A stretch of 64,000 nucleotides of DNA from Arenicellales bacterium (GCA_963457535.1 OY734803.1:334781-398780), one strand, 5' to 3'. Positions 29,253 through 56,082 are shown, numbered from the stretch's first letter. The notes: generated from the sequence alone by a model not told the origin. Translations and numbers: made by a program.

Positions 29253-30275
29253 TTACTCCGCCGGGGGCGCGGGCGGAGCGGGCGGCGCCGGGGGTTTGGG
29301 CATCCACGGCCGCCACACTTTCTCGTTGCGCGCGAGCCACCGCGCGGCGGCGCGCGGCGGGTCCATCGCATGCACATCCACCAGCGCGGCCATCACGCCG
29401 ATTTGGCGCGCGGTGAAACTGACGCGCCTCAGCATTCGGTAGGCGGCCGGCCATTTTTTCGGCATGCCGGCCCAGGCCGCTTTTTTCAGGCGGACGCCGG
29501 GCGGATTGCCGCAGTCGTGGGTGGCTTTCGGGTTGACGCCCCACTTTGCGTCGCGCCGGCATTTTGCGTGGAATGCCGGAAACTCGACGAACCTTCCGCG
29601 GTAGAGCGCGTCGGTGAAATTCGGCGACCAGTTAAACATGACGATCGGCGTTTTGTTTTTCACCGCGGTTTCCAATTCCTCCCACAGCGCGGCCGCGCCG
29701 CCGGTATGGACCGTGGTGAAATTCATTTCCAGCGCGTCAATGCGGCGGTAATCGTGCAGCCATTCGGGCGGGCCGTCTACAAACACGCCCTTGCCGCCCG
29801 AATCCGGGCGCGCAAAAATTTCCGAACACTTTTCCAGCGCCTTCCAATCCGGCAGACCCGGGCACAGCCGCGCGACATGCGCCGGATACCACCACTCCTC
29901 GCGCCCGACCGCGGCGTGTTCGCCGGCCTCCACGATGCCGCCTTTGGCGCGCGCCGCGGCAAATGCCGCGCCGGACAACCCCTGCCAAATCTCCACTTGA
30001 AGCGCCGCATCGCCGAGGCGCACCGCCTCATAGACCGCCTGGCTGTCCTCGGAAATGTAGCGGACATTGCAGCCGATTTTCTCGAACAACTGCCCGACCA
30101 CATGCGACATCACCGCCTGGCTCGCCCAAGTGTGCGTCGGAATGACGATCGGGTCGGCCGAACCGCAATCCTGCGCGCGCGCCGCCGGCGCCGGCAGCAT
30201 GCCCAGCGCGAGCAACAGCGCGCATGCGCCCGCTCGCAAACTTCCCAGCAACCGCAAAACGCCGCGCGGCGTCAT
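29253..30275 (-). CDS. ProX/OpuAC-like substrate-binding protein, copy 2 (tandem paralogue with a Pro-rich C-terminal tail)
   Basis: Collinear with copy 1 (QDCGSADPIVIPTHTWASQAVMSHVVGQLFEKIG ...). It ends in KPPAPPAPPAPPAE. The start is taken at 30275 (alternative 30323). The 523-aa track ORF is an upstream extension. Confidence 0.8.
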   Translation of the reverse strand: MTPRGVLRLLGSLRAGACALLLALGMLPAPAARAQDCGSADPIVIPTHTWASQAVMSHVVGQLFEKIGCNVRYISEDSQAVYEAVRLGDAALQVEIWQGLSGAAFAAARAKGGIVEAGEHAAVGREEWWYPAHVARLCPGLPDWKALEKCSEIFARPDSGGKGVFVDGPPEWLHDYRRIDALEMNFTTVHTGGAAALWEELETAVKNKTPIVMFNWSPNFTDALYRGRFVEFPAFHAKCRRDAKWGVNPKATHDCGNPPGVRLKKAAWAGMPKKWPAAYRMLRRVSFTARQIGVMAALVDVHAMDPPRAAARWLARNEKVWRPWMPKPPAPPAPPAPPAE

Positions 30276-30458
30276 TGCGGCGCGCGCAAAAATCCGCGGA
30301 GAAATGTGGTTAGCGCTTCGCATTGCGCCTTGGTCATTGCTTGGGGCTTTGTCCGGGGGAACACTTTGGGGGCGCCGCTTTGATGCCGCGCATGATACCC
30401 CATTCCCGCAACCGGCCGCGAAATCTGCGCTATCATCGGGCTCGCCCGCCTCCCAAAG

Positions 30459-31214
30459 ATGAAACCCGCCACCGACACCATTCGCGTTCTCATCCGCCGC
30501 GGCGACGCGCACAGCGGGCGAATCTGCGTCTATCGCGCGCCGCGCCGCGAAAACCAGACTGTGCTGGATGTGGTCACCTGGATCCAGCGCGAACTCGCGC
30601 CGGATCTGGCATACCGCTTTTCCTGCCGAGTTGGCATGTGCGGCACTTGCGCGATGATGGTCGGCGGCGCGCCGCGGTGGACTTGCCGCACGCATGTAAA
30701 AACCGTGCTGCGGCGCGGACAACTGGAATTGGCACCGTTGCGCTCGCTGCCGATTATCAAGGATTTGGCATGCGACATGTCGGAATTTTTCGCAAAGTGG
30801 CGGCGCGCCGAGGGGCGTTTTCATTCCAGCCCGGAGCGTTCCGGCCGCGCGCAGCCGCCGGTAAAAATTTTGCCGTCCACGCCGGCGCGGCGCGAAGCCG
30901 ACGCGGCGATCGAATGCATCAACTGCGCGGTCTGCTACTCGGCTTGCGATGTGGTCGCATGGAACCGCGATTACCTGGGCCCGGCCGCGCTAAACCGCGC
31001 ATGGTCGCTGCAAAACGACGCGCGCGACTCCGCGCATGCGCGCCGCCTGCGCGCGGTGTCGGCCGGCGGCGGCTGCCAGCATTGCCATTCGCAGCACTCC
31101 TGCGAGAGCTTTTGCCCGGTCGGCCTGAGTCCGGCGCGCTCCATCGCAGGCCTAAAACGCGCGCTCGCGCGCGGCGCGCTTGGGATACGGCCGCATTCGC
31201 CGCCGCACGCATGA
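30459..31214 (+). CDS. Succinate dehydrogenase/fumarate reductase iron-sulfur subunit
   Basis: 2Fe-2S motif CRVGMCGTCAMMVGG, and cluster motifs CINCAVCYSAC and CHSQHSCESFCP. Confidence 0.9.
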   Translation: MKPATDTIRVLIRRGDAHSGRICVYRAPRRENQTVLDVVTWIQRELAPDLAYRFSCRVGMCGTCAMMVGGAPRWTCRTHVKTVLRRGQLELAPLRSLPIIKDLACDMSEFFAKWRRAEGRFHSSPERSGRAQPPVKILPSTPARREADAAIECINCAVCYSACDVVAWNRDYLGPAALNRAWSLQNDARDSAHARRLRAVSAGGGCQHCHSQHSCESFCPVGLSPARSIAGLKRALARGALGIRPHSPPHA

Positions 31215-35929: not shown

Positions 35930-37125
35930 TGTCCGCGCGCTTCCAGCGCGGCGAGCGCCGGCAGAGTTTTGCCTTCCAAAAACTCCAGGAAGGCGCCGCC
36001 GCCGGTGGAGATGCAGGAGAGTTGCGCGCCGAGGCCGAAACGCTCGGCCGCGGCAAGGGTGTCGCCGCCGCCGGCCACCGAGAACGCGGAGGATGCGGCG
36101 ACGGCGCGGCCGAGGGATTCGGTGCCGGCCGCGAATGCCGGGAGTTCAAACATGCCGAGGGGGCCGTTCCAGACGACCGTGCCGGCCGATGCAATCAATT
36201 TTTGACAGCGGGCGATGGAGGCCGGGCCGATGTCCAGAATTATGTCGTCATCTGCGAGCGCGCCGAGCGATTTAACTTCGCCTTTGGCTTCGGGCGAAAT
36301 GTTTTTCGCGACTACGACATCTTCGGGCAGCGCCATCGTGCAGCCGCGCGCGCCGTTTTCGTTTTCATGCAATAACTCGCGCGCGACATCCAGCAAGGCC
36401 GGCTCGGTCAGGGAGTTGCCGACGGCATGACCGGCCGCTTTGAGCAGGGTATTTGCAATCCCGCCGCCGGGAATTAAACAATCGGCGCGCGACGCCAGCG
36501 ACTTGAGCGCGCTCAGCTTGGTCGACACTTTTGCGCCGCCTACGATGGCGACCAGCGGGCGGCGCGGCGCGTCCATGACTTTTGCCAGCGCGTCAATTTC
36601 CGCGAGCAACAGCGGGCCGGCGCAGGCCTCGCGCGCATGCAGCGCGACTCCGTGGGTGGAGGCCTGCTTGCGGTGCGCGGCGCCGAAGGCATCCATGACA
36701 AAGACGTCGCAAAGCGCGGCGTAACTTTTTGCCAGGTCCGGATCGTCGGCGCGTTCGCCGCGGTTGAAACGCACATTCTCCAGCACCACCACTTCGCCGT
36801 CAGCCGGCTGCGGCGGATGTTGCAGATAGTCATCGCACAACCGCACCTCGCGCCCCAACTTGTCGCCGAGATATTTCGCCATCGGCGCGAGCGACAGCGC
36901 CGGGTCGCGCCCGCCCTCGCGCGGGCGGCCGACATGCGACATCAGCATCACTTTGGCGCCGGCGTCCATCGCCAAACGCGCGCCGTCCAGCGCCGAGTCC
37001 AGCCGCTGCGTGGAAGTGATCACGACCCCGCCGGATTTTCCGGGCGCGGTCGGCGCGTTTAAGTCCTGGCGAATCAGCACGCGCTTGCCGCGCAGGCGGA
37101 GCGCGCTCATCGGGGTAATCGCCAT
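35926..37125 (-). CDS. pgk: Phosphoglycerate kinase
   Basis: MAITPMSALRLRGKRVLIRQDLNAP aligns with the Pgk N-terminus. The C-terminal region STGGGAFLEFLEGK is present. The start at 37125 is chosen by N-terminal alignment. Confidence 0.92.
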   Translation of the reverse strand: MAITPMSALRLRGKRVLIRQDLNAPTAPGKSGGVVITSTQRLDSALDGARLAMDAGAKVMLMSHVGRPREGGRDPALSLAPMAKYLGDKLGREVRLCDDYLQHPPQPADGEVVVLENVRFNRGERADDPDLAKSYAALCDVFVMDAFGAAHRKQASTHGVALHAREACAGPLLLAEIDALAKVMDAPRRPLVAIVGGAKVSTKLSALKSLASRADCLIPGGGIANTLLKAAGHAVGNSLTEPALLDVARELLHENENGARGCTMALPEDVVVAKNISPEAKGEVKSLGALADDDIILDIGPASIARCQKLIASAGTVVWNGPLGMFELPAFAAGTESLGRAVAASSAFSVAGGGDTLAAAERFGLGAQLSCISTGGGAFLEFLEGKTLPALAALEARGH

Positions 37126-37145
37126 AAAAAAGAGCGGAAGCGCGC

Positions 37146-38147
37146 TCAGCCGGCGTTCATCAACGCCAGCGTGGTGTCCAGCATTCGGTTGGAGAAGCCC
37201 CACTCGTTGTCATACCACGCGCACACTTTCACCAGCGTGCCGCCGCTGACGCGCGTCATGCCGGCGTCAATGCTCGCTGACAGCGGCGAGTGGTTGAAGT
37301 CCACCGACACCAGCGGCTCTTCGCTGTATGCCATGACCTTGCCGTCGCTGGCCGCTTTCAAAAGCGCGTTGACTTCCTCCACATCGGTGGCGCGCGCGGC
37401 GGTGAAAGTCAAATCCACCAGCGAGACATTGATGGTCGGCACGCGCACCGAAAAGCCGTCCAGTTTGCCGTCCAGTTCCGGCAGCACCAGGCCGACGGCG
37501 GCGGCCGCGCCGGTCTTGGTCGGGATCATGGAGGAAGTCGCCGAGCGCGCGCGGCGTAGGTCGCCGTGGTAGACATCGGTTAGCACCTGGTCATTGGTGT
37601 AGGCGTGAATGGTGTTCATCAGGCCGCTCTTTATGCCGAGGGAATCGTGCAGCGCCTTCGCCATCGGCGCCAGGCAGTTGGTGGTGCAGGACGCGTTGGA
37701 GATGATCGTGTGGTTCGCTTTCAGCGTGTCATGGTTCACGCCATAGACCACGGTGGCGTCCACATCGGCGCCGCCGGGCGCGGAGATGACCACCTTTTTC
37801 GCGCCGGCTTTGAGATGCGCGCCGGCCTTTTCGCGGCTTGCAAAAAAACCGGTGCTTTCAATGACCACATCCACGCCGAGTTCGCCCCACGGCAATGCGG
37901 CCGGGTCGCGCTCGGAGAAAACGCGAATGCGGTCGCCGTTGACGACAATCGCGTCTTCGGCGTGTTCCACGCTTCCGGGAAAGCGGCCGTGCGCGGTGTC
38001 GTAGCGCGTCAAGTGCGCATTGGTGCGCGCGTCTCCGAGATCGTTGATGGCGGCGATGCGAATTTCACCGCAGGCCGATTCATACTTGGCGCGCAGGATG
38101 TTGCGGCCGATGCGGCCGTATCCGTTGATGGCTACCGTGACTGTCAT
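37146..38147 (-). CDS. gap: Glyceraldehyde-3-phosphate dehydrogenase
   Basis: [10 protein letters not shown], and the active site [12 protein letters not shown]. Confidence 0.95.
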
Positions 38148-38210
38148 GGCGGACTCCCGTGGGACTGGTTGGATGAGTGAACGAAAAAATGCGGCGCAAA
38201 AATGTCGCGG

Positions 38211-40208
38211 CTACAGCAGCCGCCGCGCGCATTCCACCACATGCTCCGGCGTGATGTTGCAGTGCTTAAATACCTCGCCGCCCGGCGCCGACGCGCCGAA
38301 CTCGTCTATGCCGACCACCGCACCGCGCGCGCCGGCGTATTTCGCCCAGCCGGCGGTCGCGCCGGCTTCCACCACGACGCGCGCATGCGCGGCGGCCGGC
38401 AGCACCGACTCGCGGTAGTCGGCGCTTTGCGCTTCAAAGCGATCCACCGACGGCATGGACACCACGCGCACGCGCCGCTCTTTGAGTTGCGCCGCGGCCT
38501 CCACCGCGACCGCGACTTCCGAGCCGGTGGCGATCAATATGAGTTCCGGATTTTCCGATGAACTTTCGCAGTCGCGCAGCACATAGCCGCCTTTTTCTAT
38601 CGCGGCGAGTTGCGACTCGTCGCGCGGCTGGTGCGGCAGCGTCTGGCGCGAAAATGCCAGCGCAAAAGGCTGCTCGCGCGATTCCAGCGCGAGTTGCCAG
38701 GCGACCGCGGTTTCCACCGCGTCGCACGGCCGCCACACCGACATGCGCGGCACCAGCCGCAAACTCGCGAGGTGTTCTATTGGCTGGTGCGTCGGCCCGT
38801 CTTCGCCGAGCCCGATTGAGTCGTGCGTGAACACAAAAATGCCCGGAATTTTCATCAGCGCGGCCATGCGCAGCGCGTTGCGCGCGTAATCCGAGAACAT
38901 TAAAAAGGTCGCGCAAAACGGCTTGAGGCCGCGGTGCAGCGCGATGCCGTTGACCATCGCGGCCATCGCGAACTCGCGCACGCCGAAATAAATGCAGTTG
39001 CCGCCGGCGTCTTCGCGAATGTCGCGCGAGCCCGACCAAGTGGTCAGGTTGGATTCGGTCAGATCGGCCGAGCCGCCGGCCAGTTCCGGCAACAGCGGCG
39101 AAAAATATTCCAGCGCGTTTTGCGAGGCCTTGCGCGAGGCGATGTTTTGCGCCGCGGCGTCGGCCGCGCCGGCCGCGCCGCGCGCCTTGCTCTTCCAGTC
39201 TTTCGGCAACTTCCCTTCCATGCGGCGCGTGAATTCGGCGGCGAGTTCCGGATGCGCTTTTTTGTATGCGTCAAAACGCCGCGACCAGTCGCTCTCGGCC
39301 GCGGCGCCGGCATCGCGCGCGTCCCAGGCCGCGGAAATTTCGGCCGGAATTTCAAAAGGCGGATGCGGCCAGTTGAGTTGTTTGCGCGCCAGCGCGACCT
39401 CCTCCTCGCCGAGCGGCGCGCCGTGGCTGCCCGCGCTGCCGGCTTTGTTCGGCGCGCCGTAACCGATCTGCGTGCGGCAGCACAGCAAACTCGGGCGCGC
39501 ATCCTCGCGCGCCGCGCAAATCGCGCGCCCGACCGCATCGGCGTCGTGCCCGTCAACATCGGCGACCACATGCCAGCCATACGCGGCAAAACGCGCCGCG
39601 GTGTCGTCGCGAAACCAGCCGCCGACTTCGCCGTCAATGGAAATGTTGTTGTCGTCGTAAAACACGGTCAACTTCCCCAGTTGGAGCACGCCGGCGAGCG
39701 AGCAGGCCTCGTGCGAAATCCCCTCCATCATGCAGCCGTCCCCGGCGAAGACATAGGTGCGGTGGTCCACGATGCGATGTTCGCCGCGGTTGAACTGCGC
39801 GGCCAATGTGCGCTCGGCGAGCGCCATGCCGACCGCATTGGCGAGCCCCTGCCCGAGCGGCCCGGTAGTGGTTTCCACGCCCGGCGTGTCGCCGAATTCC
39901 GGATGCCCCGGCGTTTTGGAATGCAGTTGGCGAAACTGTCGCAGATCTTCCATGGACAAATCGTAGCCGGACAAATGCAGCAACGCATACAGCAGCATGG
40001 AGCCGTGCCCGTTGGACAGCACGAAGCGGTCGCGGTCGCACCAGTTCGGGTTGCGCGGATTATGTTTGAGGTGGTCGCTCCACAGCGCCTCGGCCATGTC
40101 GGCCATCCCCATCGGCGCCCCCGGATGCCCGCTACCGGCGCGCTGCACCGCGTCCATACTCAGCGCGCGAATCGCGTTGGCTTTTTGCCGCCGGTCCGCT
40201 TTGCTCAT
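38211..40208 (-). CDS. tkt: Transketolase
   Basis: [12 protein letters not shown], the [13 protein letters not shown] ThDP motif, and 665 aa length. Confidence 0.95.
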
Positions 40209-40365
40209 GAGGCGGTCATGGAGAGCGCCGAATCACCGCCAAATCCTGGCGCAAATCCTGTTTTGGGGGTCATTTGGCGGGCGGGTATTCGGGCGGGCCT
40301 GGGGGAGCGCGTATGATACTGCAAACGCGGGCGCAAACGGCGCGCCGCGCAAACGTTGCCCCTCC

Positions 40366-41214
40366 TCACAACGGCGAACCCTGCGGGGACGCGGTGTTGG
40401 CATGCACCCAGCGCTCCCAGCCGGGCAGCGCGGCGGCGTGGGCGCTGGCGACCACCGAGCGTTTGCGCAGGCGCGCGCAGTCCAGGGGCTTGCCGGACAG
40501 CGAGGTCGCGGCGCCGCCGGCTTCGGTCAGGATGCGCCAGCCGGCGGCGAAGTCCCATAACTTTTGCCCGCCGTGCAGATACAACTGCGCGCGGTCGGCG
40601 GCGAGCCAGCACCATTCCAATGCGGCCGCGCCGAGGTTGCGCTGCGAACGGTAGGGCGGCGAGCGCACCAAGCGCTCGGACAAATTTCCGACCAGATATT
40701 TGTGGTCGACCACGGCGATGCATTCGCCGAGCGGGCGCGGCGGCGGGCGGCGCAGGCGGCGGCGGTTGAGGTAGGCGCCGCGGCCGGCCTGCGCGCAAAA
40801 ACATTCGCGGCGCAGCGGGTCAAACACCACGCCGAGTTGCGCCGCGCCGTCGGCGACCAGCGCCAGCGAGACGCCGTAAAACGGAAAACCGCTGCTGAAA
40901 TTGGTGGTGCCGTCCAGCGGGTCCAACACCCAGTAACCGGCGCCGCTCTCGCACACCGCGCTCTGCTCGGCATGCGCCATCTCTTCGCCGATAAACCCGT
41001 AGCCGGGCCAGGCGCGGTGCAATTCCTCCAGCAGGCGCTCCTGAATGCGGCGGTCCAGGTCGGTGACCCAGCCGCCGTCGGGTTTGGTGTCGCGCGAAGT
41101 TTTCGCCGGGCGGTTTGCCGCGTGTTCTTCCAGCGCGACTCGTTTCACCAAATCGCCAAGCGCGAACAAATCGGGCGGCGCGTCGTGCGCCGCGGCCGGA
41201 GCAGCGGCGCTCAT
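40366..41214 (-). CDS. Inositol monophosphatase family protein (SuhB/CysQ-like phosphatase)
   Basis: FIGEE and WVLDPLDGTTNF motifs. The ATG at 41214 forms an ATGA overlap with the upstream CheA-like gene. Confidence 0.8.
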   Translation of the reverse strand: MSAAAPAAAHDAPPDLFALGDLVKRVALEEHAANRPAKTSRDTKPDGGWVTDLDRRIQERLLEELHRAWPGYGFIGEEMAHAEQSAVCESGAGYWVLDPLDGTTNFSSGFPFYGVSLALVADGAAQLGVVFDPLRRECFCAQAGRGAYLNRRRLRRPPPRPLGECIAVVDHKYLVGNLSERLVRSPPYRSQRNLGAAALEWCWLAADRAQLYLHGGQKLWDFAAGWRILTEAGGAATSLSGKPLDCARLRKRSVVASAHAAALPGWERWVHANTASPQGSPL

Positions 41215-43670
41215 TGCATCGCCGGCGGGCGAACCGCCGCGCCGGGGAAAATGCCCTGCGCGATGCGGCACAGGTCGGGGACGATGCCGATGCGCCGCTG
41301 CAACTGAACGCAGCCGAGCGCGTTGTCGGGCGGCTCGCGCGGGGTGACCGACGGCGCGTGTTCGGCGATTTCCAACAATGACGGCGCGCCGTCGCTGGCC
41401 AGCGCAAAAAAGGCGGTGGCGCGGTTGCCCTGCAGCGGGCGCAATACCACCGCGCGCGCGCCGCAGCCCAGCGGGCGCGACGGCGCGCCGACCGCGGCCG
41501 CGGCGTCTATCAGCGGGACTTGAAAGCCGCGCCAGTCAAAATTGCGCCGCACCAAATTGGGGCCGCCGGGCGCGGAGTCGCGGCGGAACAAGCCGCCATT
41601 CGCGGAATCCACCGGCATCGGTGTCTCGGAGAGATTGACGATGTCGGCGATCAGGTTGAGCGGAATCAGCACCGCGCCGAGCGAGGTTTCCAGCGCGAGC
41701 ACGCGCGACGGCGCGGCGTCGGCGCCGGGCTCGCGCGCGCCGAGCGGGAAGCGCGCCAACCCGTCGTCCTGCAGGCCGAGCGGGTCGGTGAACGCGGACG
41801 GGTCAAACACCGGCGCGATTTCCCCGCCCTTATGCGAAAGCGGCACGGCGACGCTTTGCAGGCCCTGAATGTCGGAGAGTTGGCCGCCGAGCGCGCGCTC
41901 CTCAATGTCCACGATGTCGTGCACCTGATCCACGGCGAACGCGGCGACGCGGTCGGTCATGCGCAGCAGCACCAGCGGGCGCAGTTGCGGCGGCGGGTTG
42001 GAATTTAATGCGCCGAGCGCGACCGCCAGATCAATCAGCGGAATGCGGCGCGCGTCGTCCAGGCGAATGCTCGCGCGCCCGTCGGCGGCGGTCTCGCAGT
42101 CAATCGGGCGCGCGCGCAGAATGCAGTCCACCTGCCGCATCGGCAGCGCGAGGCGGTAGCCGCCGGCGGTGACCATCAGCGCGCGCGGCGGCGCGGCCGC
42201 GCCCGGCAGCAGGCAATGCAGGCGCAGCCCGGCCTCGGGCGGCGGCGAGGTTTGCAGCGCCATCAAGCCGCCGAGTTCGCCGATGGATTGGTGCATCATT
42301 AATATGTCGTCCATGCCGGCCAGGTTGAACACCGCGGCCGCGCCGTTGCCGCCGGCGGCCGGCGCGCGCGGCGCGCGGTGGGTGCGCGCCAGAATTTGCA
42401 GCCAGTGCGCGGCGCGAATTTCCGAGGCGCGAGCGCACAGGCCGAGGGCGATGGCCGCGTCGGCGAAGCGGCGCGCGCCGGGGCCGCGGCCGTCGTCGGC
42501 GTAGTCCAGCAGCACTTCCCCGCCCTGCCGCGCGGCGCGCAAATGAATGCGCGCGAGCGCGGGTTTGCCGGCCGCGGAACGCGCGCCGGGCTCTTCAATG
42601 CGCTGCACGATGGAATTGTGAATCAGCCGCTCAAACGCCGGCAACAGGCGTTCAATCACGATGCGGTCAATTTCCACATCGCCGCCTTGCAGGGTGAATT
42701 CAACTTGCTTGCCGGCGCGCTCGGCGGTCTCGCGCGCGAGGTGCGGCAGGTGCTGCAGCGGCTCGGCGAAAGTTCCGGGAGGAGGCGCGGACGCGGATTG
42801 GGCGGCGTTGCCGGCATTACCGGGTTGGCGGCCGTTGCGGCGCGCTTCGTCGGAAAGCAACAGCGCGACCATGCTGTTCAGCGAGGCGATATGCCCGCGC
42901 GCGAGCGACGGCGCCAAGCCCAACTCGGCGGCGAGTCCGTCATGCGCTTCTTCCAGCAGGTTCAGCAGGCCGACATCGTTAATGTCGCGCGGCGCTTCCG
43001 ACTGCGCCAGCAAGCGCGCGATGCTGCCGGTGAGCGCGGCGATTTCGTCTTGGCCGGCCACGGTCGCGCCGCGCTGTAGCGCGCGGAATTCTTCGCACAG
43101 CGACTGCAGCAACGCCGCATCCACATTGCCGCCGCGCCAGCCTGCCAAACCGGCGTGAATGCTGGCGAGGCGCGGCTGGCATTCGGCGACGAAAGCCGGC
43201 GAATGCGCCTCGGCCGGCGGCGCCGGGGGCGGAGGCGGAGCAACTTCGGCGGGAGGCGCCGGAGCGGGTGGCGGCGGCGCAGCGACCGGTTGTGCGGTGG
43301 GTGGCGTGGTTGCAGGCGCAGGAGGTACGGGGGGCGCGGCGACGGGCGGCGGCGCGGGTGCGGTGGGAGGCGGAGCGGATGCGACCGACAGCGGCGGCGG
43401 CGCAGGCATCGGCGCCGGTGCAACTCCAATTGGTTGCGCGACGGGCGGCGCGATTCCCGCAGACGGCGCCGGCGCGGTTGCCGTCGGCGTATAGGCGACC
43501 GCCGAGGCCGGCGGACGCTGCGGGGGCTTGTGCGCGCCGCCGAGCGGCGCGCCGGCGTCGGCGTCAAAGTCGTCCACCACCGACTTGCGCGCGGCGAACG
43601 CCGACAACGCGCCGAAGGCGTTGCGCCAACTCGCAGACAGCGTGTCCAGGGCGTCGCGCCAGTGCATCAT
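41211..43670 (-). CDS. CheA-like protein: Pro-rich N-terminus, Hpt-like region without a histidine at the phospho-site, degenerate HATPase-like domain and two CheW-like domains
   Basis: 819 aa. The Hpt-like helix is LCEEFRALQRGATVAGQDEIAAL. The kinase-core-like region is EFTLQGGDVEIDRIVIERLLPAFERLIHNSIVQ ... LLDYADDGRGPG ... IGELGGLMALQTS. The CheW-like blocks are ALMVTAGGYRLALPMRQVD and VLALETSLGAVLIPLNLIADI. Confidence 0.7.
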   Translation of the reverse strand: MMHWRDALDTLSASWRNAFGALSAFAARKSVVDDFDADAGAPLGGAHKPPQRPPASAVAYTPTATAPAPSAGIAPPVAQPIGVAPAPMPAPPPLSVASAPPPTAPAPPPVAAPPVPPAPATTPPTAQPVAAPPPPAPAPPAEVAPPPPPAPPAEAHSPAFVAECQPRLASIHAGLAGWRGGNVDAALLQSLCEEFRALQRGATVAGQDEIAALTGSIARLLAQSEAPRDINDVGLLNLLEEAHDGLAAELGLAPSLARGHIASLNSMVALLLSDEARRNGRQPGNAGNAAQSASAPPPGTFAEPLQHLPHLARETAERAGKQVEFTLQGGDVEIDRIVIERLLPAFERLIHNSIVQRIEEPGARSAAGKPALARIHLRAARQGGEVLLDYADDGRGPGARRFADAAIALGLCARASEIRAAHWLQILARTHRAPRAPAAGGNGAAAVFNLAGMDDILMMHQSIGELGGLMALQTSPPPEAGLRLHCLLPGAAAPPRALMVTAGGYRLALPMRQVDCILRARPIDCETAADGRASIRLDDARRIPLIDLAVALGALNSNPPPQLRPLVLLRMTDRVAAFAVDQVHDIVDIEERALGGQLSDIQGLQSVAVPLSHKGGEIAPVFDPSAFTDPLGLQDDGLARFPLGAREPGADAAPSRVLALETSLGAVLIPLNLIADIVNLSETPMPVDSANGGLFRRDSAPGGPNLVRRNFDWRGFQVPLIDAAAAVGAPSRPLGCGARAVVLRPLQGNRATAFFALASDGAPSLLEIAEHAPSVTPREPPDNALGCVQLQRRIGIVPDLCRIAQGIFPGAAVRPPAMQ

Positions 43671-43733
43671 GATCGTATGCGTCGTCCGCGGTCGGTCATC
43701 GCTTTGCCGGCCGGCGCGGTCATCCCCCGGCCG

Positions 43734-44816
43734 TCAGCGCCGCAGCGCATGCATCTCCAAAAAGTCACGGCTGGCGCTTTCAATTTCGCCGAGCGCGCGC
43801 GCCGCGTCAATCGCGAGCGCGGCGCCGCCGGTGGCGTCGCCGGCGGTCGCCTCGGTCTCGGCCAGGGCCTGCTCGGCATCGCGTTTCATGCGCCGCGCGA
43901 GGTCGGCGATTTCGCCGATGACGCGCGCCGAATTGGCCGCCAGTCTTTGCGCGTCTTCGGCGGCGAGCGCCATGCCGCGCCCGGATTCGCCGGAGCGCGC
44001 GGCTTGCACCGCCGCGTTCAGCGCAAGAATGTCGGCCTGCTCGCCGACTTCCAGCAATTGCTCGCCGAGCGCGGTGATGCGCTGCGCGCTGTCTTCCAGT
44101 TGGTGCAGGCGCTCGGCGGTGGTGCGCAATTGTTTGGCGGCGTTGTCCAGGCCGGTGATGGTGTTGTGCACCGCGGCCGCGCCCTTTTGCGCGGAGACCT
44201 CGGCGGCGCGAAGGGCGTCATGCGAGGTCGCGCCGCCATAGCCATTGCCGCCGTTGCTGCGATTTCGCGCCGGGGCGGCGCGCGCCGGTTCGGGAATCGG
44301 CGCGGGAATGGGCTCCGGAATGGGCGCCGGCGCAGGGATGACGCGCTCCGGTTCTGGCGCGGGTTCGGGCGCGGGCACAGGTTCGGGGAGCGGCGGCGGC
44401 GAAATCGGCGCGGGTTCGGCGATGCTCGCTGGCTCGGGAACCGCCTCGGGTACGGGCGCGGGTTCGGGAATGCCGGCGTGTTCGGATTCGGTGGTGCTCT
44501 CGCGCGCGGGAATGCGCATGCGCCGACGCCGGCGGCGGCGCGCCAGGCCGATCCACAGCATCAAAATCACCAGCGCGCCCAGCCCGCCGAGCAGCCACGG
44601 CGTGTTGCGCTCCAGTTCGGCCCTGGCGACCTCTAGCAACAGCGCCCACAGCGATTCGGCTACGGTCAAATCGGCCGCGGCCGCGGCGATGCCCGGGAAA
44701 GCCAGCGCGCCGAACACGACGCTGGGACCGGCGCCGGGCCGCAATGCGCGTTTGCACATTAAGAAAGTGTGCAGCGCGACGCGCATGCCGGGCAGCCGGA
44801 TTGCAAGGCGCGTCAT
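43734..44816 (-). CDS. Short methyl-accepting-chemotaxis-protein-like transducer (two TM segments, PEP-repeat linker, about 165-aa signalling hairpin, no HAMP recognised)
   Basis: The hairpin-tip motif GEQADILALNAAVQAARSGESGRGMALAAEDAQRLA resembles the MCP consensus. The ATG at 44816 gives an ATGA overlap with the CheW-like gene. Confidence 0.7.
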   Translation of the reverse strand: MTRLAIRLPGMRVALHTFLMCKRALRPGAGPSVVFGALAFPGIAAAAADLTVAESLWALLLEVARAELERNTPWLLGGLGALVILMLWIGLARRRRRRRMRIPARESTTESEHAGIPEPAPVPEAVPEPASIAEPAPISPPPLPEPVPAPEPAPEPERVIPAPAPIPEPIPAPIPEPARAAPARNRSNGGNGYGGATSHDALRAAEVSAQKGAAAVHNTITGLDNAAKQLRTTAERLHQLEDSAQRITALGEQLLEVGEQADILALNAAVQAARSGESGRGMALAAEDAQRLAANSARVIGEIADLARRMKRDAEQALAETEATAGDATGGAALAIDAARALGEIESASRDFLEMHALRR

Positions 44817-45463
44817 TGTCCGACTCGCCGCCATTGTTCCGAGGACAACAGCGCGTCCATGTCCAGCACGCCCCAGCGCCGCGCGCCTTCGCGCAACGCC
44901 GCGCGCAAATACGGCGCGACGCTTTGCGCCGCCTCCTCGCGCGCGGCGGCCGGCAGGCCGCCTTCAAACACGCGCAGACTGACGCTTTTGTCCAGCAACA
45001 ACGCGCTGTAAAAATCCTGCTGCGGCGGCAGCAACAGCAGCCGCGCGCGCGACGCGTCGGTCGCGCCGAAGCCGAGGAAGTCGGCGAGGTCTATCACCGT
45101 GTAAATTTTTCCGTGCATGGCGGCGATGCCGCGCACCCAGCCGCGGCAGCGCGGCAGCGCGCACAACCGGTCGGCCGAGGCGATTTCCATGCCGTCTTGC
45201 AGCGGCAGCGCGAGGTGTTCGTCGGCCTGCCGAACGCCGCTTTCGTCCGCGCCGCGCCGCGCCAGCCGGAACGCGAATCCGTGCCAGTCGCCAGGGCCGC
45301 GCGCATGCGTGCGGCGTCCAAACGCCGCGTTTTCCAGGTGGCGCAACAAAACGCTTGCCGGCAGCGGCGCACCCGCGCCCGGTTCGGCCTGGCCGGCAGG
45401 ACCGCCCCGCGCGGCGGGAGCGGGCGGCGGGGCGCGAAATGCGGGGTCGGTGGGCTGGGGCAT
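44813..45463 (-). CDS. CheW-like coupling protein
   Basis: WVRGIAAMHGKIYTVIDLADFLG ... ARLLLLPP ... YSALLLDKSVSLRVF matches CheW/PilI-type domains. The start is taken at 45463 (MPQPTDP). The track ORF begins at 45577. Confidence 0.65.
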   Translation of the reverse strand: MPQPTDPAFRAPPPAPAARGGPAGQAEPGAGAPLPASVLLRHLENAAFGRRTHARGPGDWHGFAFRLARRGADESGVRQADEHLALPLQDGMEIASADRLCALPRCRGWVRGIAAMHGKIYTVIDLADFLGFGATDASRARLLLLPPQQDFYSALLLDKSVSLRVFEGGLPAAAREEAAQSVAPYLRAALREGARRWGVLDMDALLSSEQWRRVGQ

Positions 45464-45576
45464 TTTTTTCGCCGTTTGCGCGAAAATCACGAAAATAACG
45501 GATACTATACCGAATACCGCATGCAAACAAGGCATTGCAATCCCGGACACAATCTGCTTTAATCGTCCGTCCACCA

Positions 45577-45596
45577 AACGCTTATCAACGCTTATC
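45577..45596 (+). repeat. Perfect 10-bp direct tandem repeat (aacgcttatc x2) abutting the GGAGG of the peptide-binding-protein gene
   Basis: Read directly. GGAGG is at 45597-45601 and the ATG is at 45611. Confidence 0.9.
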
Positions 45597-45610
45597 GGAG
45601 GTATTTTTCC

Positions 45611-47311
45611 ATGTCATCAAAAGACGACCAATTTTCCCCCGGACGGGTTCACCCCGGGGTGCAAACCATGCAGGACCAGTTGTTGCGCGGCAAATGCTCG
45701 CGGCGCGAATTCCTGCGAACCGTGACCCTTCTCGGCCTGTCGGCGCCGGCCGCATACGGCCTTGCCGGACGGTTGCTCGGCGAAAAACTCGTGCCGCCGG
45801 CGGTGACGCCCGCGCATGCGCAGTCCGGCGGACTGCTGCGCTTCGGCATGTTCGTGCAGGAGATGACCGACCCGGCCACCTTTGACTGGGTGGAGCGCTC
45901 GGTGGTTGCGCGCCACATCGTGGAATACATGACGCTGACCGGGCCCGACAATGTCACCCGCCCGTATCTGGCCGAGCGCTGGCAGCCGTCGGACGACCTC
46001 AAAACCTGGCGCTTCTTCCTGCGCAAGGGCATCAAGTGGTCAAACGGAGACGACTTCAACGCCGACGACGTGGTGTTCAACTTCACCCGCTGGTGCGACC
46101 CGAAAACCGGCTCGTCCAACCTCGGCCTGTTCTCGGCGATGCTGGAAGACACCGGCCAAAACGACAGCGCCGGCAAGCCGATCAAGCGCATGACGCCGGG
46201 CGCGGTGCGCAAGGTCGACGACCACACCGTGGAAATCCGCCTGAACTCTCCGGTGCTTTCCATTCCGGAAAACCTCTACAACTACCCGACCGCGATCGTC
46301 CACCGCAACTTTGAGCGCGACGGCGGCGACCTCAGCAAAAACCCGGTCGGAACCGGCCCCTACATGCTCGACCTGTTCAAACTGGGCGAAGTGGCCGTGC
46401 TGAAGAAACGCCCGGAGCCGTATTGGGGCGGCGATGTTTCGCTCGACGAAATCCGCATCATCGACCTCGGGGCGGACGAAGGGGCGACCCTCGCCGCGCT
46501 CGCCTCCGGGCAGATCGACTCCATGTACGAGTTGAAACTGACCACGGTGGAAGCGGCAAAAAACATCCCGAATGTTTCCATCCAGCAGGTCGCCACCGCC
46601 AAGACCGGCGTCATCCGCATGAACCTCGCGCACAAGCCGTTTGACGACAAACGCGTGCGCCGCGCGATTCAAATGTGCTGCGACTCCGACCGCCAGCTGA
46701 AGATCGCGCACAAAGGCTTCGGCATCGTCGGCGAGCATGTGCATGTCGCCAGCATCCACCCGGAATACTTCAAACTGCCGAAGTTCAACCAGGACATCGA
46801 AGGCGCGAAGAAACTGCTGGCGAAAGCCGGCTATCCGAACGGCCTGTCGGTTTCATGCAATGTCGGCAACACCGATGGCACCTGGGAGCAGGACTCCATC
46901 GCGGTGCTGAAGCAGGACGCGGCGAAAGCCGGCATTGACATCTCCATCAACGTCATGCCGTCCGCGAAATACTGGGACGAATGGGCGACCGCGCCGTTCA
47001 GCCTGACCTCGTGGACGCACCGTCCGCTCGGCACCATGGTGCTGTCGCTGGCCTACCGCGCCGGCGTGCCGTGGAACGAGACCAGCTACAACAACCCGGC
47101 CTTTGACCGCGCGCTGACCGCCGCCGAAGGCGTGTTTGACGTCGAGAAACGCCGCGCCAAGATGGAAAAAGTCGAGCAGATCCTGCAGGACGACGCCATC
47201 ATGGTGCAGCCGTTCTTCCGCTCGGTGTTCGTCGCGGTCTCCAACCGAGTGCGGAACTTCTCGATTCACCCGACGCTGTATCACCGCTTCCACAACGTGC
47301 GCGTCGGCTGA
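45611..47311 (+). CDS. ABC transporter substrate-binding protein, family 5 (peptide/nickel/opine type) with a Tat-like signal
   Basis: [23 protein letters not shown] twin-arginine-like leader. 566 aa with family-5 fold motifs. A strong SD is present. Confidence 0.9.
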
Positions 47312-54200: not shown

Positions 54201-55306
54201 GCGCGCCGCAATACGCCCCCGGAAAACACCCCGACCTGCCGGCGCCGTCCACCCTGGCCGGGCCGCTCGCCTGGGTGCGCGCCAACCTGCTTTCGTCTCC
54301 GTCCAACATCGCGCTGACGCTGCTGTCGCTGTGGTTTCTGTGGTCGGTCATTCCGGACGCGCTCAATTGGTTTTTCTTTGACGCGGTCTATTCCGGCGAA
54401 AACCGCGCCGCCTGCCGCGCCGCCGGCGAAGGCGCGTGCTGGGCCTTCATCGGCGAGTATTTAAAACTCTTCACCTACGGTTTTTACCCGGAGGAATCGC
54501 GCTGGCGCGTCAACCTCGCGTTCGTGCTGATGTGGCTGGCGCTGGTGCCGATATTGTTTGACCGCGTGCCGCACCGCAAATACGGGCTGTATTACGCGGC
54601 CGCCTTCCCGTTCATCGCCGGCTGGCTGCTGGTCGGCGGGCTCGGCCTCGCGCCGGTTACCACCGACAAATTCGGCGGCATCATGCTCACGCTGGTGGTC
54701 GGCGTCACCGGCATCGCCTTCTCGCTGCCCATCGGCATTTTGCTCGCGCTCGGGCGCTCGTCCAAACTGACCATCATCCGCGTGTTCTGCGTCGGCTTCA
54801 TTGAATTCATCCGCGGCGTCCCGCTGATCACGCTGCTGTTCGTCGCCTCCACCATGCTGAGTTACTTCCTGCCGCCGGGAACCAACTTTGATTTGCTGCT
54901 GCGCGTGCTGATCATGGTCACGCTGTTCGCCTCCGGCTACATGGCCGAGGTCATCCGCGGCGGACTGCAGGCGATTCCGTCCGGGCAGACCGAGGCCGCC
55001 GACGCGCTCGGCCTGAAATACTGGCAGGCGATGCGCCTCATCGTGCTGCCGCAGGCGCTGAAAATTTCCATTCCGGGAATCGTCAACACCTTTATCGGCC
55101 TTTACAAGGACACCACGCTGGTCATCATCATCGGCCTCTACGACCCGCTCGGCATCGGCCGCGCCGCGCTCGCCAACACCAGTTGGATCGGCCTTTCCAC
55201 CGAGGTGTACATTTTCGTCGCCATCTTCTTCTTCGTCTCGTGCTTCGCGATGTCGCGCTATTCGCTGTATCTCGAAGACAAACTGGAAACCGGGCACAAA
55301 CGCTAA
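54197..55306 (+). CDS. Amino acid ABC transporter permease (AapM/BztC-like)
   Basis: [35 protein letters not shown] loop. ATGA overlap with the preceding permease gene. The track ORF start at 53609 is rejected. Confidence 0.9.
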
Positions 55307-55320
55307 CCGGAGGTCCGACC

Positions 55321-56082
55321 ATGCCTGAAACCGAAAAAACCCATGCCGAACTGGCGGTCAAAATTGAGGCCATGCACAAGTGGTACGGCCAGTTCCATGT
55401 CCTGAAGAACATCAACCTGCAGGTGCGCCGCGGCGAGCGCATCGTGATTTGCGGGCCTTCCGGCTCGGGCAAATCCACGATGATCCGCTGCATCAACCGC
55501 CTGGAGGAGCACCAGCAGGGCGACATCATCGTGGACGGGGTGGAACTGACCAACGACCTGAAAAACATTGAAACCATCCGCAAGGAAGTCGGCATGGTTT
55601 TTCAGCACTTCAATTTGTTCCCGCACCTGACCGTGCTGGAAAACTGCACGCTCGCGCCGATATGGGTGCGCAAATCGCCGAAGGCCGAAGCGGTCGCGAC
55701 CGCGATGGAATATTTGGAGCGCGTGCAGATTCCCGAGCAGGCGCACAAATTCCCCGGGCAACTCTCCGGCGGCCAGCAGCAGCGCGTCGCCATCGCGCGC
55801 AGTTTGTGCATGAACCCGCGCATCATGCTGTTTGACGAGCCGACCTCGGCGCTGGATCCGGAAATGATCAAGGAAGTGCTGGATGTGATGGTGGAACTCG
55901 CGCAGGAGGGCATGACCATGCTGTGCGTGACCCACGAAATGGGTTTCGCCAAAACCGTGGCCAACCGCGTGATTTTCATGGACGAAGGCGAAATCATTGA
56001 GGAAAACTCGCCCGACCAGTTCTTTGACCACCCGGAACACGAACGCACCAAGTTGTTTTTGAGCCAGATTCTCAGCCACTGA
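55321..56082 (+). CDS. Amino acid ABC transporter ATP-binding protein (AapP/BztD/GlnQ-like)
   Basis: [24 protein letters not shown] and [13 protein letters not shown]. Confidence 0.95.

What the first reader, a model, noticed from the sequence alone, without database searches (positions are those of the whole stretch)
40366..45463. Stand-alone CheW-like / short MCP-like / histidine-less CheA-like / IMPase operon with no response regulator, CheB or CheR
SEEN: There are four co-directional minus-strand genes. Two of the junctions are ATGA start/stop overlaps (44813-44816 and 41211-41214). By motif, the products are a CheW-like protein, an MCP-like transducer, a CheA-like multidomain protein and an inositol-monophosphatase-family protein (WVLDPLDGTTNF). 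The flanks are unrelated: a divergent peptide ABC operon upstream and tkt-gap-pgk downstream. No receiver domain, CheB, CheR or CheZ-like gene accompanies the cluster. The only REC protein in the window (59842) is an OmpR-type regulator with its own kinase. All three chemosensory-like proteins carry long Pro/Ala-rich low-complexity stretches.

ESTABLISHED: Characterised chemosensory pathways (Che, Wsp, Pil-Chp, Frz) signal by His-to-Asp phosphotransfer from CheA to a receiver domain.

INFERENCE: This may be a scaffold-only or non-phosphorelay array. Its output may run through the translationally coupled IMPase-family phosphatase. I do not recognise this arrangement as a described system.
Basis: partly seen in the sequence, partly recalled or inferred. 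Interest (0 to 1): 0.72.

Follow-up and report, generated by a model that had tools for sequence, protein, structure and literature searches.

The report
Kinase-dead remnant of Pil-Chp operon
This gene cluster is a cut-down leftover of the well-known chemosensory system that steers type IV pili, found in a clade of sponge-symbiont bacteria: it can no longer pass phosphate signals, yet natural selection still keeps its scaffold proteins, and the neighbouring phosphatase gene is just a housekeeping neighbour.

Summary
Four co-directional minus-strand genes encode a CheW, a short MCP, a CheA-like protein and an IMPase. Both ATGA overlaps are there, and no receiver, CheB or CheR gene accompanies them.

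The cluster is a reduced descendant of the Pil-Chp (type IV pilus, Tfp-class) operon of Arenicellales, not a stand-alone invention. The window is most likely from the Ianthella basta symbiont 'Ca. Taurinisymbion ianthellae'.

Sister genomes carry, at the same locus (yqgE | … | IMPase-tkt-gap-pgk), one of three states:
- a complete operon pilG-pilH-pilI-pilJ-chpA-chpC;
- the reduced form seen here;
- no che genes at all.

The reduced ChpA keeps one Hpt module, with Arg at the phospho-His site. It has lost the P3 dimerisation domain, the F and G2 ATP-lid boxes and the receiver domain, and it is fused to the ChpC CheW-like protein. PilJ has lost its sensor, HAMP and adaptation regions. No PilG orthologue was seen in genomes with the reduced form.

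The genes are not pseudogenes. dN/dS is 0.14–0.33 overall and 0.03–0.1 in some domains, and every sampled member of the clade keeps the CheA-like gene.

The IMPase stays in place in all three states, so it is an independent neighbour and not the output. Most likely function (inferred): a phosphorylation-independent scaffold. Novelty: new variant of a known kind.

The parts
44813..45535 (-). PilI-type CheW adaptor. The CheW domain is residues 115-247 of the 254-aa ORF, behind a Pro/Ala-rich N-terminus. The start is either 45535 or 45463.
   Evidence: Pfam CheW 3.6e-12. It is 32% identical to the PilI of the complete operon in L005, E 1e-23. Against a 98%-identical strain it shows 0 nonsynonymous and 7 synonymous changes.
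43734..44834 (-). Truncated PilJ-type chemoreceptor. It has two hydrophobic segments with a loop of about 22 aa, a PEP-rich linker of about 85 aa, and a short signalling hairpin of about 78 and 82 residues per arm. There is no periplasmic PilJ domain, no HAMP and no adaptation region. The start is 44834 or 44816 (ATGA overlap with the CheW stop).
   Evidence: Pfam MCPsignal 8e-18. The alignment with the 738-aa PilJ of L005 shows the lost regions and a retained tip, 'NAAVQAARSGESGRG'. The C-terminal half has dN/dS 0.04.
43206..43670 (-). N-terminal extension of the CheA-like protein (residues 1-155), Pro/Ala-rich from about residue 45 on; the low-complexity part is probably disordered.
   Evidence: Read from the sequence. 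It is shared only with the closest relatives, P0001 and L011. dN/dS 0.17.
42816..43205 (-). Single Hpt-like five-helix module without the phospho-accepting His. Arg196 (codon 43083-43085) occupies the His position. The helix 'LLNLLEEAHDGL' is invariant.
   Evidence: Alignment to the last Hpt of the complete ChpA, 'REFHTLKGSAAATG', against the window's 'EEFRALQRGATVAG'. The AF2 model gives pLDDT about 90.
42186..42758 (-). Degenerate P4 (HATPase) domain. The fold is kept, the N-box Asn352 and the G1 box DDGRG are kept, and the F and G2 boxes are lost. No P3 dimerisation domain precedes it; only a disordered linker of about 28 aa does.
   Evidence: Residue-level alignment to E. coli CheA 8c5v/6s1k. 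Motif table. Foldseek matches P4 with TM up to 0.88. There is no Pfam HATPase_c hit. A block of about 190 columns holding P3 is missing relative to L005 ChpA.
41751..42185 (-). P5 (CheW-like) domain of the CheA-like protein.
   Evidence: Pfam CheW, residues 497-627. Foldseek hit 4jpb_A with TM 0.89. dN/dS 0.08.
41214..41750 (-). Second CheW-like domain. It is the orthologue of the separate ChpC gene of complete operons, fused in frame where the ChpA receiver domain used to be.
   Evidence: Pfam CheW 2.7e-5, 24.3 bits, when scanned alone. The L005 151-aa ORF downstream of chpA matches window 41705-41247, E 7e-14. dN/dS 0.03.
40366..41214 (-). IMPase/SuhB-family phosphatase. It is a co-oriented, overlapping neighbour (ATGA at 41214-41211), but an independent conserved gene at the head of the tkt-gap-pgk block, not part of the chemosensory remnant.
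   Evidence: Pfam Inositol_P 3.7e-48. The DPxDGT and WDxAAG motifs are present. The gene sits upstream of tkt wherever tkt lies within the fetched locus, with a restriction-modification island between the two in several loci; those loci include complete-operon genomes and a che-less genome. It is 57-85% identical across the order, against 30-40% for the Che proteins.

Best explanation
The cluster is what remains of a Pil-Chp (type IV pilus, Tfp-class) chemosensory operon after one round of reductive evolution. The reduction happened in the ancestor of a clade of sponge-symbiotic Arenicellales (Ca. Poriferihabitaceae / LS-SOB). The window most likely comes from 'Ca. Taurinisymbion ianthellae'.

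Shown:
- pilG and pilH were lost.
- PilJ lost its periplasmic sensor, its HAMP domain and the adaptation half of its bundle.
- ChpA was trimmed to one Hpt module, and the phospho-His was then replaced (Arg here).
- In this sub-lineage ChpA also lost P3, the F and G2 ATP-lid boxes and the C-terminal receiver domain. It became fused to the ChpC CheW-like protein.
- The IMPase is an unrelated housekeeping gene. It has always lain between the operon and tkt-gap-pgk and is merely co-transcribed or translationally coupled.
- The surviving proteins are under purifying selection, and the CheA-like gene is kept in every sampled member of the clade, so they still do something. Constraint is strongest on PilI, the PilJ tip, P5 and the ChpC domain in the window lineage, and on P4 and P5 in the L002 lineage.

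Inferred:
- The parts kept are those that build chemoreceptor lattices (receptor tip, CheW, P5, a second CheW domain), while everything needed for phosphotransfer is gone.
- The most likely role is therefore a phosphorylation-independent structural or protein-docking scaffold at the membrane. The tandem P5-ChpC domains may replace P3-mediated dimerisation for lattice connectivity.
For: Synteny series at one locus (yqgE/ruvX/pyrR/pyrB | ... | IMPase-tkt-gap-pgk):
- Complete pilG-pilH-pilI-pilJ-chpA-chpC in L005 and L016.
- Reduced CheW, short MCP and CheA-like gene in the window, L003, L004, L013, L014, L017 and L018.
- No MCP in L002, L008 and L010.
- No PilI in L006.
- No che genes at all in L015.

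Phylogeny and relatives:
- NJ trees of IMPase and gap put all reduced genomes in one clade; in the midpoint-rooted tkt tree the window and L006 fall outside the rest, so there the grouping holds only as an unrooted split. In all three trees the complete and che-less genomes form a separate group.
- An exhaustive HMM search of 1.84 billion representative proteins finds only about 15 clusters with the reduced architecture. The next best hits are 1,700-2,100-aa multi-Hpt ChpAs.

Motifs over 19 reduced proteins:
- The His site is R, Q, D, S, A or, in three cases, H.
- G2 is lost in all nine reduced genes aligned.
- P3 is absent in most.

Structure: the AF2 model and Foldseek confirm Hpt-like, P4 and P5 folds.

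Selection:
- The CheA-like gene has dN/dS 0.136 (binomial p = 8e-11) for the window against L007.
- It has dN/dS 0.24-0.33 (p < 1e-6) in the L002/L008/L010 trio.
- CheW shows 0 nonsynonymous and 7 synonymous changes; the P5 and ChpC domains have dN/dS 0.03-0.08.

PilG: the top 120 homologues (at least 59% identical) include chromosomes with complete operons, but none of the chromosomes with reduced clusters.
Against: - Different lineages have lost different partners: the MCP in L002, PilI in L006, and the receptor tip is degenerate in L003 and L004. This fits ongoing decay as well as it fits a fixed scaffold.
- Che proteins evolve much faster than the flanks (30-40% identity against 60-80%).
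- In the L002 lineage the Hpt* and ChpC domains are only weakly constrained (dN/dS 0.3-0.5; one pair has p = 0.13).
- No expression data were found.
- The scaffold role is inferred from which parts are kept and is not demonstrated.
- Type IV pilus genes and orphan CheY genes elsewhere in these genomes could not be searched.
- The PilG absence test sees only the 120 best hits.
Confidence: 0.7

Rival explanations
1. Non-functional relic. The genes are pseudogenes in slow decay on the way to the clean deletion seen in L015. Their open frames persist only because stop codons are rare at about 70% GC.
For: - Losses of the MCP, PilI, P3, the N-box Asn and the receptor tip are stepwise and lineage-specific.
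- One sister genome has lost the whole cluster.
- Long spurious ORFs are common in this GC-rich DNA.
- The Che proteins diverge fast compared with their neighbours.
Against: - dN/dS is far below 1 in recent comparisons, made long after the phosphorelay was lost (0.136, p = 8e-11; domain values 0.03-0.1).
- There are no frameshifts across about 19 diverged members.
- Every sampled member of the clade keeps the CheA-like gene.
Confidence: 0.17
2. The Che-like proteins form a non-phosphorelay sensor whose output is the translationally coupled IMPase-family phosphatase.
For: - The CheA-like gene and the IMPase gene are adjacent in every locus. They are separated by 10-50 nt or overlap, with ATGA in the window and overlaps in L014 and L018.
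- The CheA-like and IMPase genes are the only two genes of the block present in all reduced genomes.
Against: - The IMPase occupies the same place after a complete, phosphorelay-competent operon (L005, L016), and with no che genes in L015.
- Its orthologues are much more widespread than the reduced CheA-like gene.
- It evolves like the housekeeping flanks: dN/dS 0.11-0.15 and 57-85% identity.
- Catalytic motifs are ordinary, and its closest solved relatives are SuhB/IMPase.
Confidence: 0.07
3. The proteins still take part in phosphotransfer. Either another His or another kinase phosphorylates a partner in trans, or the P4 domain still binds nucleotide as a regulatory ligand, with an orphan receiver encoded elsewhere in the genome.
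For: - The window protein keeps the N-box Asn352 and the G1 box DDGRG.
- P4 is the most constrained domain in the L002 lineage, with dN/dS 0.04-0.10.
- Three family members still have His at the Hpt site.
- Split or complementing CheAs are known in Rhodobacter sphaeroides (own knowledge).
Against: - G2 and F boxes are lost in all reduced genes, and the Asn is lost in most.
- The His site carries five different substitutions.
- No pilG/pilH lies next to any reduced cluster, even the ones that keep His.
- No PilG orthologue was seen in those chromosomes.
Confidence: 0.06

Closest known systems
Pil-Chp chemosensory system of Pseudomonas aeruginosa and other Gammaproteobacteria (pilGHIJK-chpABC; Tfp class)
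   Same: - Direct descent. The cluster sits in the same genomic slot as complete pilG-pilH-pilI-pilJ-chpA-chpC operons in sister Arenicellales.
- PilI, the PilJ signalling hairpin, the ChpA Hpt/P4/P5 and ChpC are recognisable orthologues.
- Two CheW-like linkers (PilI and ChpC) accompany the kinase, as described for Pil-Chp (PMC12632253).
   Different: - No PilG or PilH.
- No PilJ sensor or HAMP domain.
- A single His-less Hpt instead of many Xpt domains.
- No P3, a degenerate ATP site, and no receiver domain.
- ChpC is fused to ChpA.
- PilK and ChpB are already absent from the complete operons of this order.
Canonical CheA (Hpt, dimerisation, HATPase_c and CheW core domains)
   Same: The P4 and P5 folds match solved CheA structures (6s1k, 1b3q, 2ch4). 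There is an Hpt-like helical bundle at the N-terminus.
   Different: The survey of 13,673 CheAs found all four core domains in every homologue, and two-CheW CheAs almost only in class F5 (PMC10782961). Here the phospho-His, P3 and the ATP-lid boxes are missing, and the second CheW domain arose by fusion with ChpC in a Tfp-class protein.
Non-phosphorylatable Xpt/Hpt modules within ChpA
   Same: - ChpA of P. aeruginosa carries Hpt-like domains without the conserved His. Their function is unknown, and a scaffold role has been suggested (PMC10782961, PMC12632253).
- A complete ChpA related to this family (P0364) already has Arg at the His site of the module next to P3.
   Different: In those proteins the His-less modules coexist with phosphorylatable ones and an active kinase. 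Here the His-less module is the only one left.
Bacterial pseudokinase or scaffold derivatives of histidine kinases (for example DivL of Caulobacter) and split CheAs of Rhodobacter sphaeroides (own knowledge)
   Same: These are histidine-kinase-derived proteins kept for roles that do not need their own His autophosphorylation.
   Different: They come from a different lineage and have a different architecture. They still work inside phosphorelays with identified partner kinases or receivers, whereas no partner is evident here.

Membership tests
Pil-Chp (Tfp-class) chemosensory system | Descent from, and synteny with, pilGHIJ-chpA-chpC operons | tested here: met
   The cluster occupies the same slot between yqgE-ruvX-pyrR-pyrB and IMPase-tkt-gap as the complete operons in L005 and L016. 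Orthology holds domain by domain. The nearest non-family hits are long multi-Hpt ChpAs.
Pil-Chp (Tfp-class) chemosensory system | CheY-like response regulators PilG and PilH | tested here: not met
   There are none in the cluster or the 64-kb window, and none next to any reduced cluster. No PilG orthologue from reduced-cluster chromosomes is among the 120 best hits. Whole genomes could not be scanned.
Pil-Chp (Tfp-class) chemosensory system | PilJ receptor with a periplasmic ligand-binding domain and a full-length cytoplasmic bundle | tested here: not met
   Only two TM segments, a linker and a hairpin of about 80 residues per arm remain. L005 PilJ has 738 aa and a 143-residue C-arm.
Pil-Chp (Tfp-class) chemosensory system | ChpA with multiple Hpt/Xpt domains, an active kinase core and a C-terminal receiver | tested here: not met
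   There is one His-less Hpt, no P3, degenerate F and G2 boxes, and no REC domain.
Pil-Chp (Tfp-class) chemosensory system | Control of a type IV pilus machinery encoded in the same genome | not testable with these tools
   No T4P gene lies in the window or the fetched loci. Whole-genome scans were not possible, and the papers on the I. basta symbionts do not mention pili.
CheA histidine kinase | Hpt domain with a phospho-accepting His | tested here: not met
   Arg196 aligns with the His of 'REFHTLKG'. No Pfam Hpt hit was found for the window protein.
CheA histidine kinase | P3 dimerisation domain (H-kinase_dim) | tested here: not met
   The block of about 190 columns that holds P3 in L005 ChpA is deleted. 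The distance from HDGL to G1 is 152 residues, against 375 in L005. The AF2 model shows only a disordered 28-aa linker.
CheA histidine kinase | Catalytic HATPase_c with N, G1, F and G2 boxes | tested here: not met
   The fold is retained (Foldseek TM up to 0.88), and the N-box Asn and G1 box are kept. H405 is replaced by R, the F box is lost, and GRGVGMD has become FNLAGMD. Pfam HATPase_c is not detected.
CheA histidine kinase | C-terminal CheW-like P5 domain | tested here: met
   Pfam CheW 1.9e-17 with two stretches. Foldseek hit 4jpb_A with TM 0.89.
Inositol monophosphatase family (Pfam PF00459) | Inositol_P domain with the metal-binding motifs DPxDGT and WDxAAG | tested here: met
   164.8 bits against a cut-off of 27. 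The motifs were read in the sequence. The closest solved structures are SuhB/IMPase at about 1e-31.
Specific IMPase subfamilies (SuhB, HisN, CysQ equivalogs of NCBIfam) | Score above the curated equivalog cut-off | tested here: not met
   HisN scores 107 against 275, SuhB 98.8 against 332, and CysQ 96.9 against 228.8. The substrate remains unassigned.

The most novel reading that the evidence does not exclude
A whole clade of sponge symbionts has converted a Pil-Chp signalling array into a phosphorylation-independent module: a mini-receptor, CheW, and a monomeric kinase-dead ChpA-ChpC fusion. Selection keeps this module for a new structural or docking role, for example polar organisation, envelope or host-contact functions, or ligand-controlled sequestration of a partner. 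It would be a natural 'pseudokinase' chemosensory core complex.
Probability: 0.4. Interest if true: 0.65.

Novelty: new variant of a known kind. Interest (0 to 1): 0.5.

Why it matters
Chemosensory arrays are assumed to exist in order to control a CheA kinase. The largest survey to date found the four core CheA domains in every homologue.

A clade-wide, selectively maintained derivative lacks the phospho-His, the dimerisation domain, the ATP lid and every receiver, yet keeps exactly the lattice-forming parts. That would be a natural experiment on what the array scaffold can do on its own. It also bears on the unexplained His-less Xpt modules of ChpA.

In addition, it gives a dated, stepwise picture of how a signalling operon is dismantled during adaptation to life inside a sponge: complete, then reduced, then gone, all at one locus.

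For annotation, it warns that 'CheA/CheW/MCP' calls in these symbionts do not imply chemotaxis or twitching control. It also shows that operonic coupling to the IMPase gene is historical, not functional.

Tried and rejected
- The promoter and terminator scan of 37000-46000 gave nothing above the shuffled expectation, so operon boundaries stay inferred from spacing.
- The metagenome-contig scan returned a single locus (L012), which is an ordinary complete Pil-Chp cluster.
- The supplementary tables of both I. basta symbiont papers were searched for pilus, chemotaxis and IMPase entries, with no occurrences.
- I considered that the MCP in the 98% strain L007 was frameshifted. It is a scaffold gap of Ns in the PEP repeat.
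- I considered that L011 lacked upstream che genes. The contig simply ends inside the Pro/Ala-rich N-terminus of the CheA-like gene.
- I looked for che relics in the 551-bp spacer of the che-less L015 and found none.
- I looked for a hidden PilI in L006 with a family HMM and found none.
- I rejected F-class or ACF-class origins, because synteny and the best hits point to Tfp-class ChpA.

Full report
**1. Observation**

The four minus-strand ORFs exist as described:
- a CheW-like gene at 44813..45577, with a likely start at 45535 or 45463;
- an MCP-like gene at 43734..44834;
- a CheA-like gene of 819 aa at 41211..43670;
- an IMPase gene at 40366..41214.

Pfam gives CheW 3.6e-12, MCPsignal 8e-18 and Inositol_P 3.7e-48. 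For the 819-aa protein it finds only two CheW-like stretches, with no Hpt, H-kinase_dim or HATPase_c. NCBIfam CheA models align to residues 307-623, far below their cut-offs.

Both ATGA stop/start overlaps were read in the sequence. The flanks are a divergent peptide ABC transporter and tkt-gap-pgk. The only receiver domain found in the window belongs to an OmpR-type regulator at 59842, next to its own kinase. All three Che-like proteins carry Pro/Ala- or Pro/Glu-rich stretches, which raise local GC to 0.70-0.72.

**2. Organism**

The IMPase is 99% identical to a protein named from 'Arenicellales bacterium IbO2'. Every related locus comes from sponge-metagenome MAGs of Arenicellales / Candidatus Poriferihabitaceae (PMC12859430).

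The dominant gammaproteobacterial symbiont of the sponge Ianthella basta, 'Ca. Taurinisymbion ianthellae', is an Arenicellales (LS-SOB family) MAG of 2.35 Mbp (PMC10356861). It is reported to encode and express fibronectin-III proteins (PMC10947273). The window contains FN3-repeat proteins at 56218-59180. The window is therefore most likely from this symbiont or a very close strain. L007, from an I. basta-type metagenome, is 98% identical over the cluster.

**3. Origin of the cluster**

Sequence searches show the CheA-like protein is rare. The word-indexed search found five close relatives, then a drop to ordinary CheAs at under 30% identity.

An exhaustive HMM search of 1.84 billion representative proteins found about 15 clusters that match end to end. 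These were followed directly by 1,700-2,100-aa multi-Hpt ChpA proteins that match only over P4-P5.

Genomic context settles the origin. In relatives, the divergent block pyrC-pyrB-pyrR-ruvX-yqgE lies on one side and IMPase-tkt-gap-pgk on the other. Between them there is one of three states:

(a) A complete Pil-Chp operon. L005 has pilG, pilH, pilI, a 738-aa pilJ, an 1,853-aa chpA (Hpt x3, HATPase_c, CheW, REC) and a 151-aa chpC-like gene. L016 has the same content, with ChpA split in two.

(b) The reduced form. CheW, a 360-390-aa MCP and a 590-860-aa CheA-like gene are found in the window, L003, L004, L013, L014, L017 and L018. The MCP is missing in L002, L008 and L010. PilI is missing in L006.

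(c) Nothing. L015 (Ca. Spongiihabitans) has a 551-bp spacer with no che relics.

In the window itself the pyr-yqgE side has been replaced by the peptide transporter.

NJ trees of IMPase and gap place all reduced genomes in one clade. In the midpoint-rooted tkt tree the window and L006 fall outside the rest, so there the grouping holds only as an unrooted split. In all three trees the complete (L005, L016) and empty (L015) genomes form a separate group. The simplest reading is one reduction event at the base of that clade, inherited since, plus an independent clean deletion in L015.

**4. Anatomy of the reduced proteins**

Alignment with the complete ChpAs and with E. coli CheA structures shows the following for the window protein:
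- A Pro/Ala-rich N-terminus (residues 1-155).
- One Hpt-like module in which Arg196 replaces the phospho-His ('REFHTLKGSAAATG' against 'EEFRALQRGATVAG').
- A disordered linker of about 28 residues where the P3 dimerisation domain (about 190 alignment columns in L005) used to be.
- A P4 domain that keeps the N-box Asn352 and the G1 box DDGRG. It has H405 replaced by R, no F box, and FNLAGMD in place of the G2 box GRGVGMD.
- A P5 CheW-like domain.
- In place of the receiver domain, a second CheW-like domain. This is the orthologue of the separate ChpC gene (Pfam CheW 2.7e-5 when scanned alone; L005 ChpC matches it at E 7e-14).

An AlphaFold2 model supports a five-helix Hpt-like bundle, P4 and P5 with pLDDT 80-95. 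Foldseek returns CheA core-unit structures (E 4e-25; P4 TM up to 0.88, P5 0.89).

Across 19 reduced family members the former His site is R (8), Q (3), D (3), H (3), S (1) or A (1). The N-box Asn is lost in most. G2 is lost in all nine reduced genes aligned. Four members still keep a P3-sized insert.

The three members that still have His sit in the same receiver-less context where their loci could be fetched. Loss of pilG/pilH and of the receiver therefore came first, and the phospho-site then drifted independently. The helix 'LLNLLEE[AV]HDGL' of the Hpt module is invariant in the aligned reduced and complete proteins.

The MCP keeps two hydrophobic segments with a loop of about 22 residues. 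It also keeps a PEP-rich linker and a hairpin of about 78 and 82 residues per arm with an intact tip ('NAAVQAARSGESGRG'). The periplasmic PilJ domain, HAMP and the distal half of the bundle are gone. The tip is degenerate in L003 and L004.

**5. Are they still genes?**

Nei-Gojobori estimates were made on close pairs, which diverged long after the reduction.

Window against L007:

| Gene or domain | Result |
|---|---|
| CheW | 0 nonsynonymous, 7 synonymous changes |
| MCP C-terminal half | omega 0.04 |
| CheA-like, whole | omega 0.136 (13.5 N, 36.5 S; binomial p = 8e-11) |
| P5 | omega 0.08 |
| ChpC domain | omega 0.03 |
| Hpt* | omega 0.22 |
| P4* | omega 0.27 |
| IMPase | omega 0.11 |
| Neighbouring transporter genes | omega at most 0.03 |

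In the MCP-less L002/L008/L010 trio:

| Gene or domain | omega |
|---|---|
| CheA-like, whole | 0.24-0.33 (p < 1e-6) |
| P4* | 0.04-0.10 |
| P5 | 0.08-0.29 |
| ChpC domain | 0.35-0.53 (relaxed) |
| Hpt* | 0.30-0.48 (relaxed) |

The proteins are therefore under purifying selection. It is weaker than on housekeeping neighbours, and its pattern depends on which partners remain. Counts per domain are small.

**6. Receivers**

The L005 REC gene is a PilG by its named homologues. Its 120 best relatives (at least 59% identical) include chromosomes that carry complete operons (2,900,423 bp and 4,414,935 bp, among others). They include none of the chromosomes or long contigs that carry reduced clusters (3,149,763; 2,601,700; 2,672,430; 2,001,770; 2,768,178 bp, and others). 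This is an indirect test that uses contig length as a fingerprint. It says nothing about other CheY-like genes.

**7. The IMPase**

It has the catalytic motifs and is closest to SuhB/IMPase structures, but it reaches no NCBIfam equivalog cut-off. It sits upstream of tkt wherever tkt lies within the fetched locus. Type I restriction-modification islands are often inserted between the two. Those loci include both complete-operon genomes and the che-less genome.

Its orthologues (54-85% identical) are found in many more Arenicellales genomes than the reduced CheA-like gene. It evolves like the flanks. The overlap with the upstream gene is therefore best read as inherited operon packing, not as a functional output link.

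**8. Mechanism and rivals**

Shown: descent from Pil-Chp, loss of every element needed for His-to-Asp transfer, retention under selection, and independence of the IMPase.

Inferred: what is kept is the set of lattice-forming contacts (receptor tip, CheW, P5 and a second CheW domain). The likeliest role is therefore a phosphorylation-independent scaffold or docking platform. The tandem P5-ChpC may substitute for the lost P3 dimer in linking units.

Rivals:
- Slow decay to deletion (0.17).
- Output through the IMPase (0.07).
- Residual or trans phosphotransfer, or nucleotide sensing by P4 (0.06).

Lineage-specific loss of the MCP or of PilI, and the degenerate tips in L003 and L004, are the main arguments for decay. 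The low omega values and clade-wide retention argue against it.

**9. Comparison with what is known**

The canonical Pil-Chp system comprises PilJ, the two CheW-like linkers PilI and ChpC, the multi-Xpt kinase ChpA with a receiver domain, and PilG/PilH (PMC12632253). The cluster works like none of the phosphorelay steps of that system, and it fails the membership tests for receivers, sensor domain and kinase. By descent, however, it clearly belongs to it.

A survey of 13,673 CheAs found Hpt, dimerisation, HATPase_c and CheW domains in all of them. It found two CheW domains almost only in class F5 (PMC10782961). This family breaks each of those rules.

His-less Xpt modules of unknown function exist inside complete ChpAs (PMC10782961). 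One complete relative (P0364) already has Arg at the His site of the module next to P3. The retained module may therefore always have had a non-phosphotransfer role.

I found no paper describing a kinase-dead ChpA lineage.

**10. Verdict**

This is a new variant of a known kind, of moderate interest. It is explained as reductive evolution in a symbiont, but the maintained, phosphorelay-less core is unusual and testable.

Limits:
- No whole-genome access for T4P or CheY genes.
- The trees are crude.
- The dN/dS method is simple and the counts are small.
- There are no expression data.

Noticed in passing
window 3065-4486 (+): An N6/N4 DNA methyltransferase ORF sits between two branched-chain amino-acid ABC permease genes (2067-3068 and 4491-5567). 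It looks like an orphan methylase inserted into a liv-type transporter operon.
   Followed up: no
window 11328-16451 and 23545-30824: A methylated-amine and one-carbon gene set:
- a DAO/FAO_M/GCV_T dehydrogenase (11328-13787);
- an MTTB-family methyltransferase (14835-16451);
- formate-THF ligase (23545-25209);
- a Rieske oxygenase (25678-26967);
- two OpuAC betaine-binding proteins (28226-30824).

This fits the osmolyte-based nutrition reported for the I. basta symbiont.
   Followed up: no
window 26757-28196 (-): Adenylate kinase is fused to a DUF429 domain in one 479-aa ORF.
   Followed up: no
window 56218-59180 (+): Two overlapping ORF calls each carry four fibronectin type III repeats. These are eukaryote-like proteins typical of sponge symbionts. 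The two calls may be one gene with a frame problem. FN3 proteins of the I. basta gammaproteobacterium are reported as expressed (PMC10947273).
   Followed up: partly
L002 13004-19646; L003 11000-14343; L013 9903-12832; L014 10207-13482; L018 12912-15684: Type I restriction-modification or related defence islands are inserted again and again in the short gap between the IMPase gene and tkt. The gap appears to be a recurrent integration hot spot in this clade.
   Followed up: no
window 43068-43094 vs L007 (P0001): Three of the 12 amino-acid differences between the window CheA-like protein and its 98% strain variant cluster in the former phospho-site loop (FRALQRGATVAG against FRALQHSATAAG). One of them creates a His three residues after the canonical site.
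   Followed up: partly
P0364 (1913-aa ChpA): A complete ChpA from a relative carries four near-identical copies of the same Hpt module. The copy next to P3 already has Arg at the His position. His-less modules next to the kinase core may therefore predate the reduction.
   Followed up: partly
window 44293-44375: Short 12-nt tandem units encode the P-E-P / A-P-I-P repeats of the MCP linker. The same stretch is an unresolved N gap in the L007 scaffold, which suggests length variation or assembly difficulty.
   Followed up: partly
window 54461-56304 (-): Two long minus-strand ORFs (278 and 333 aa) have no Pfam hit and overlap plus-strand ORFs. They are possibly spurious in this GC-rich DNA.
   Followed up: no
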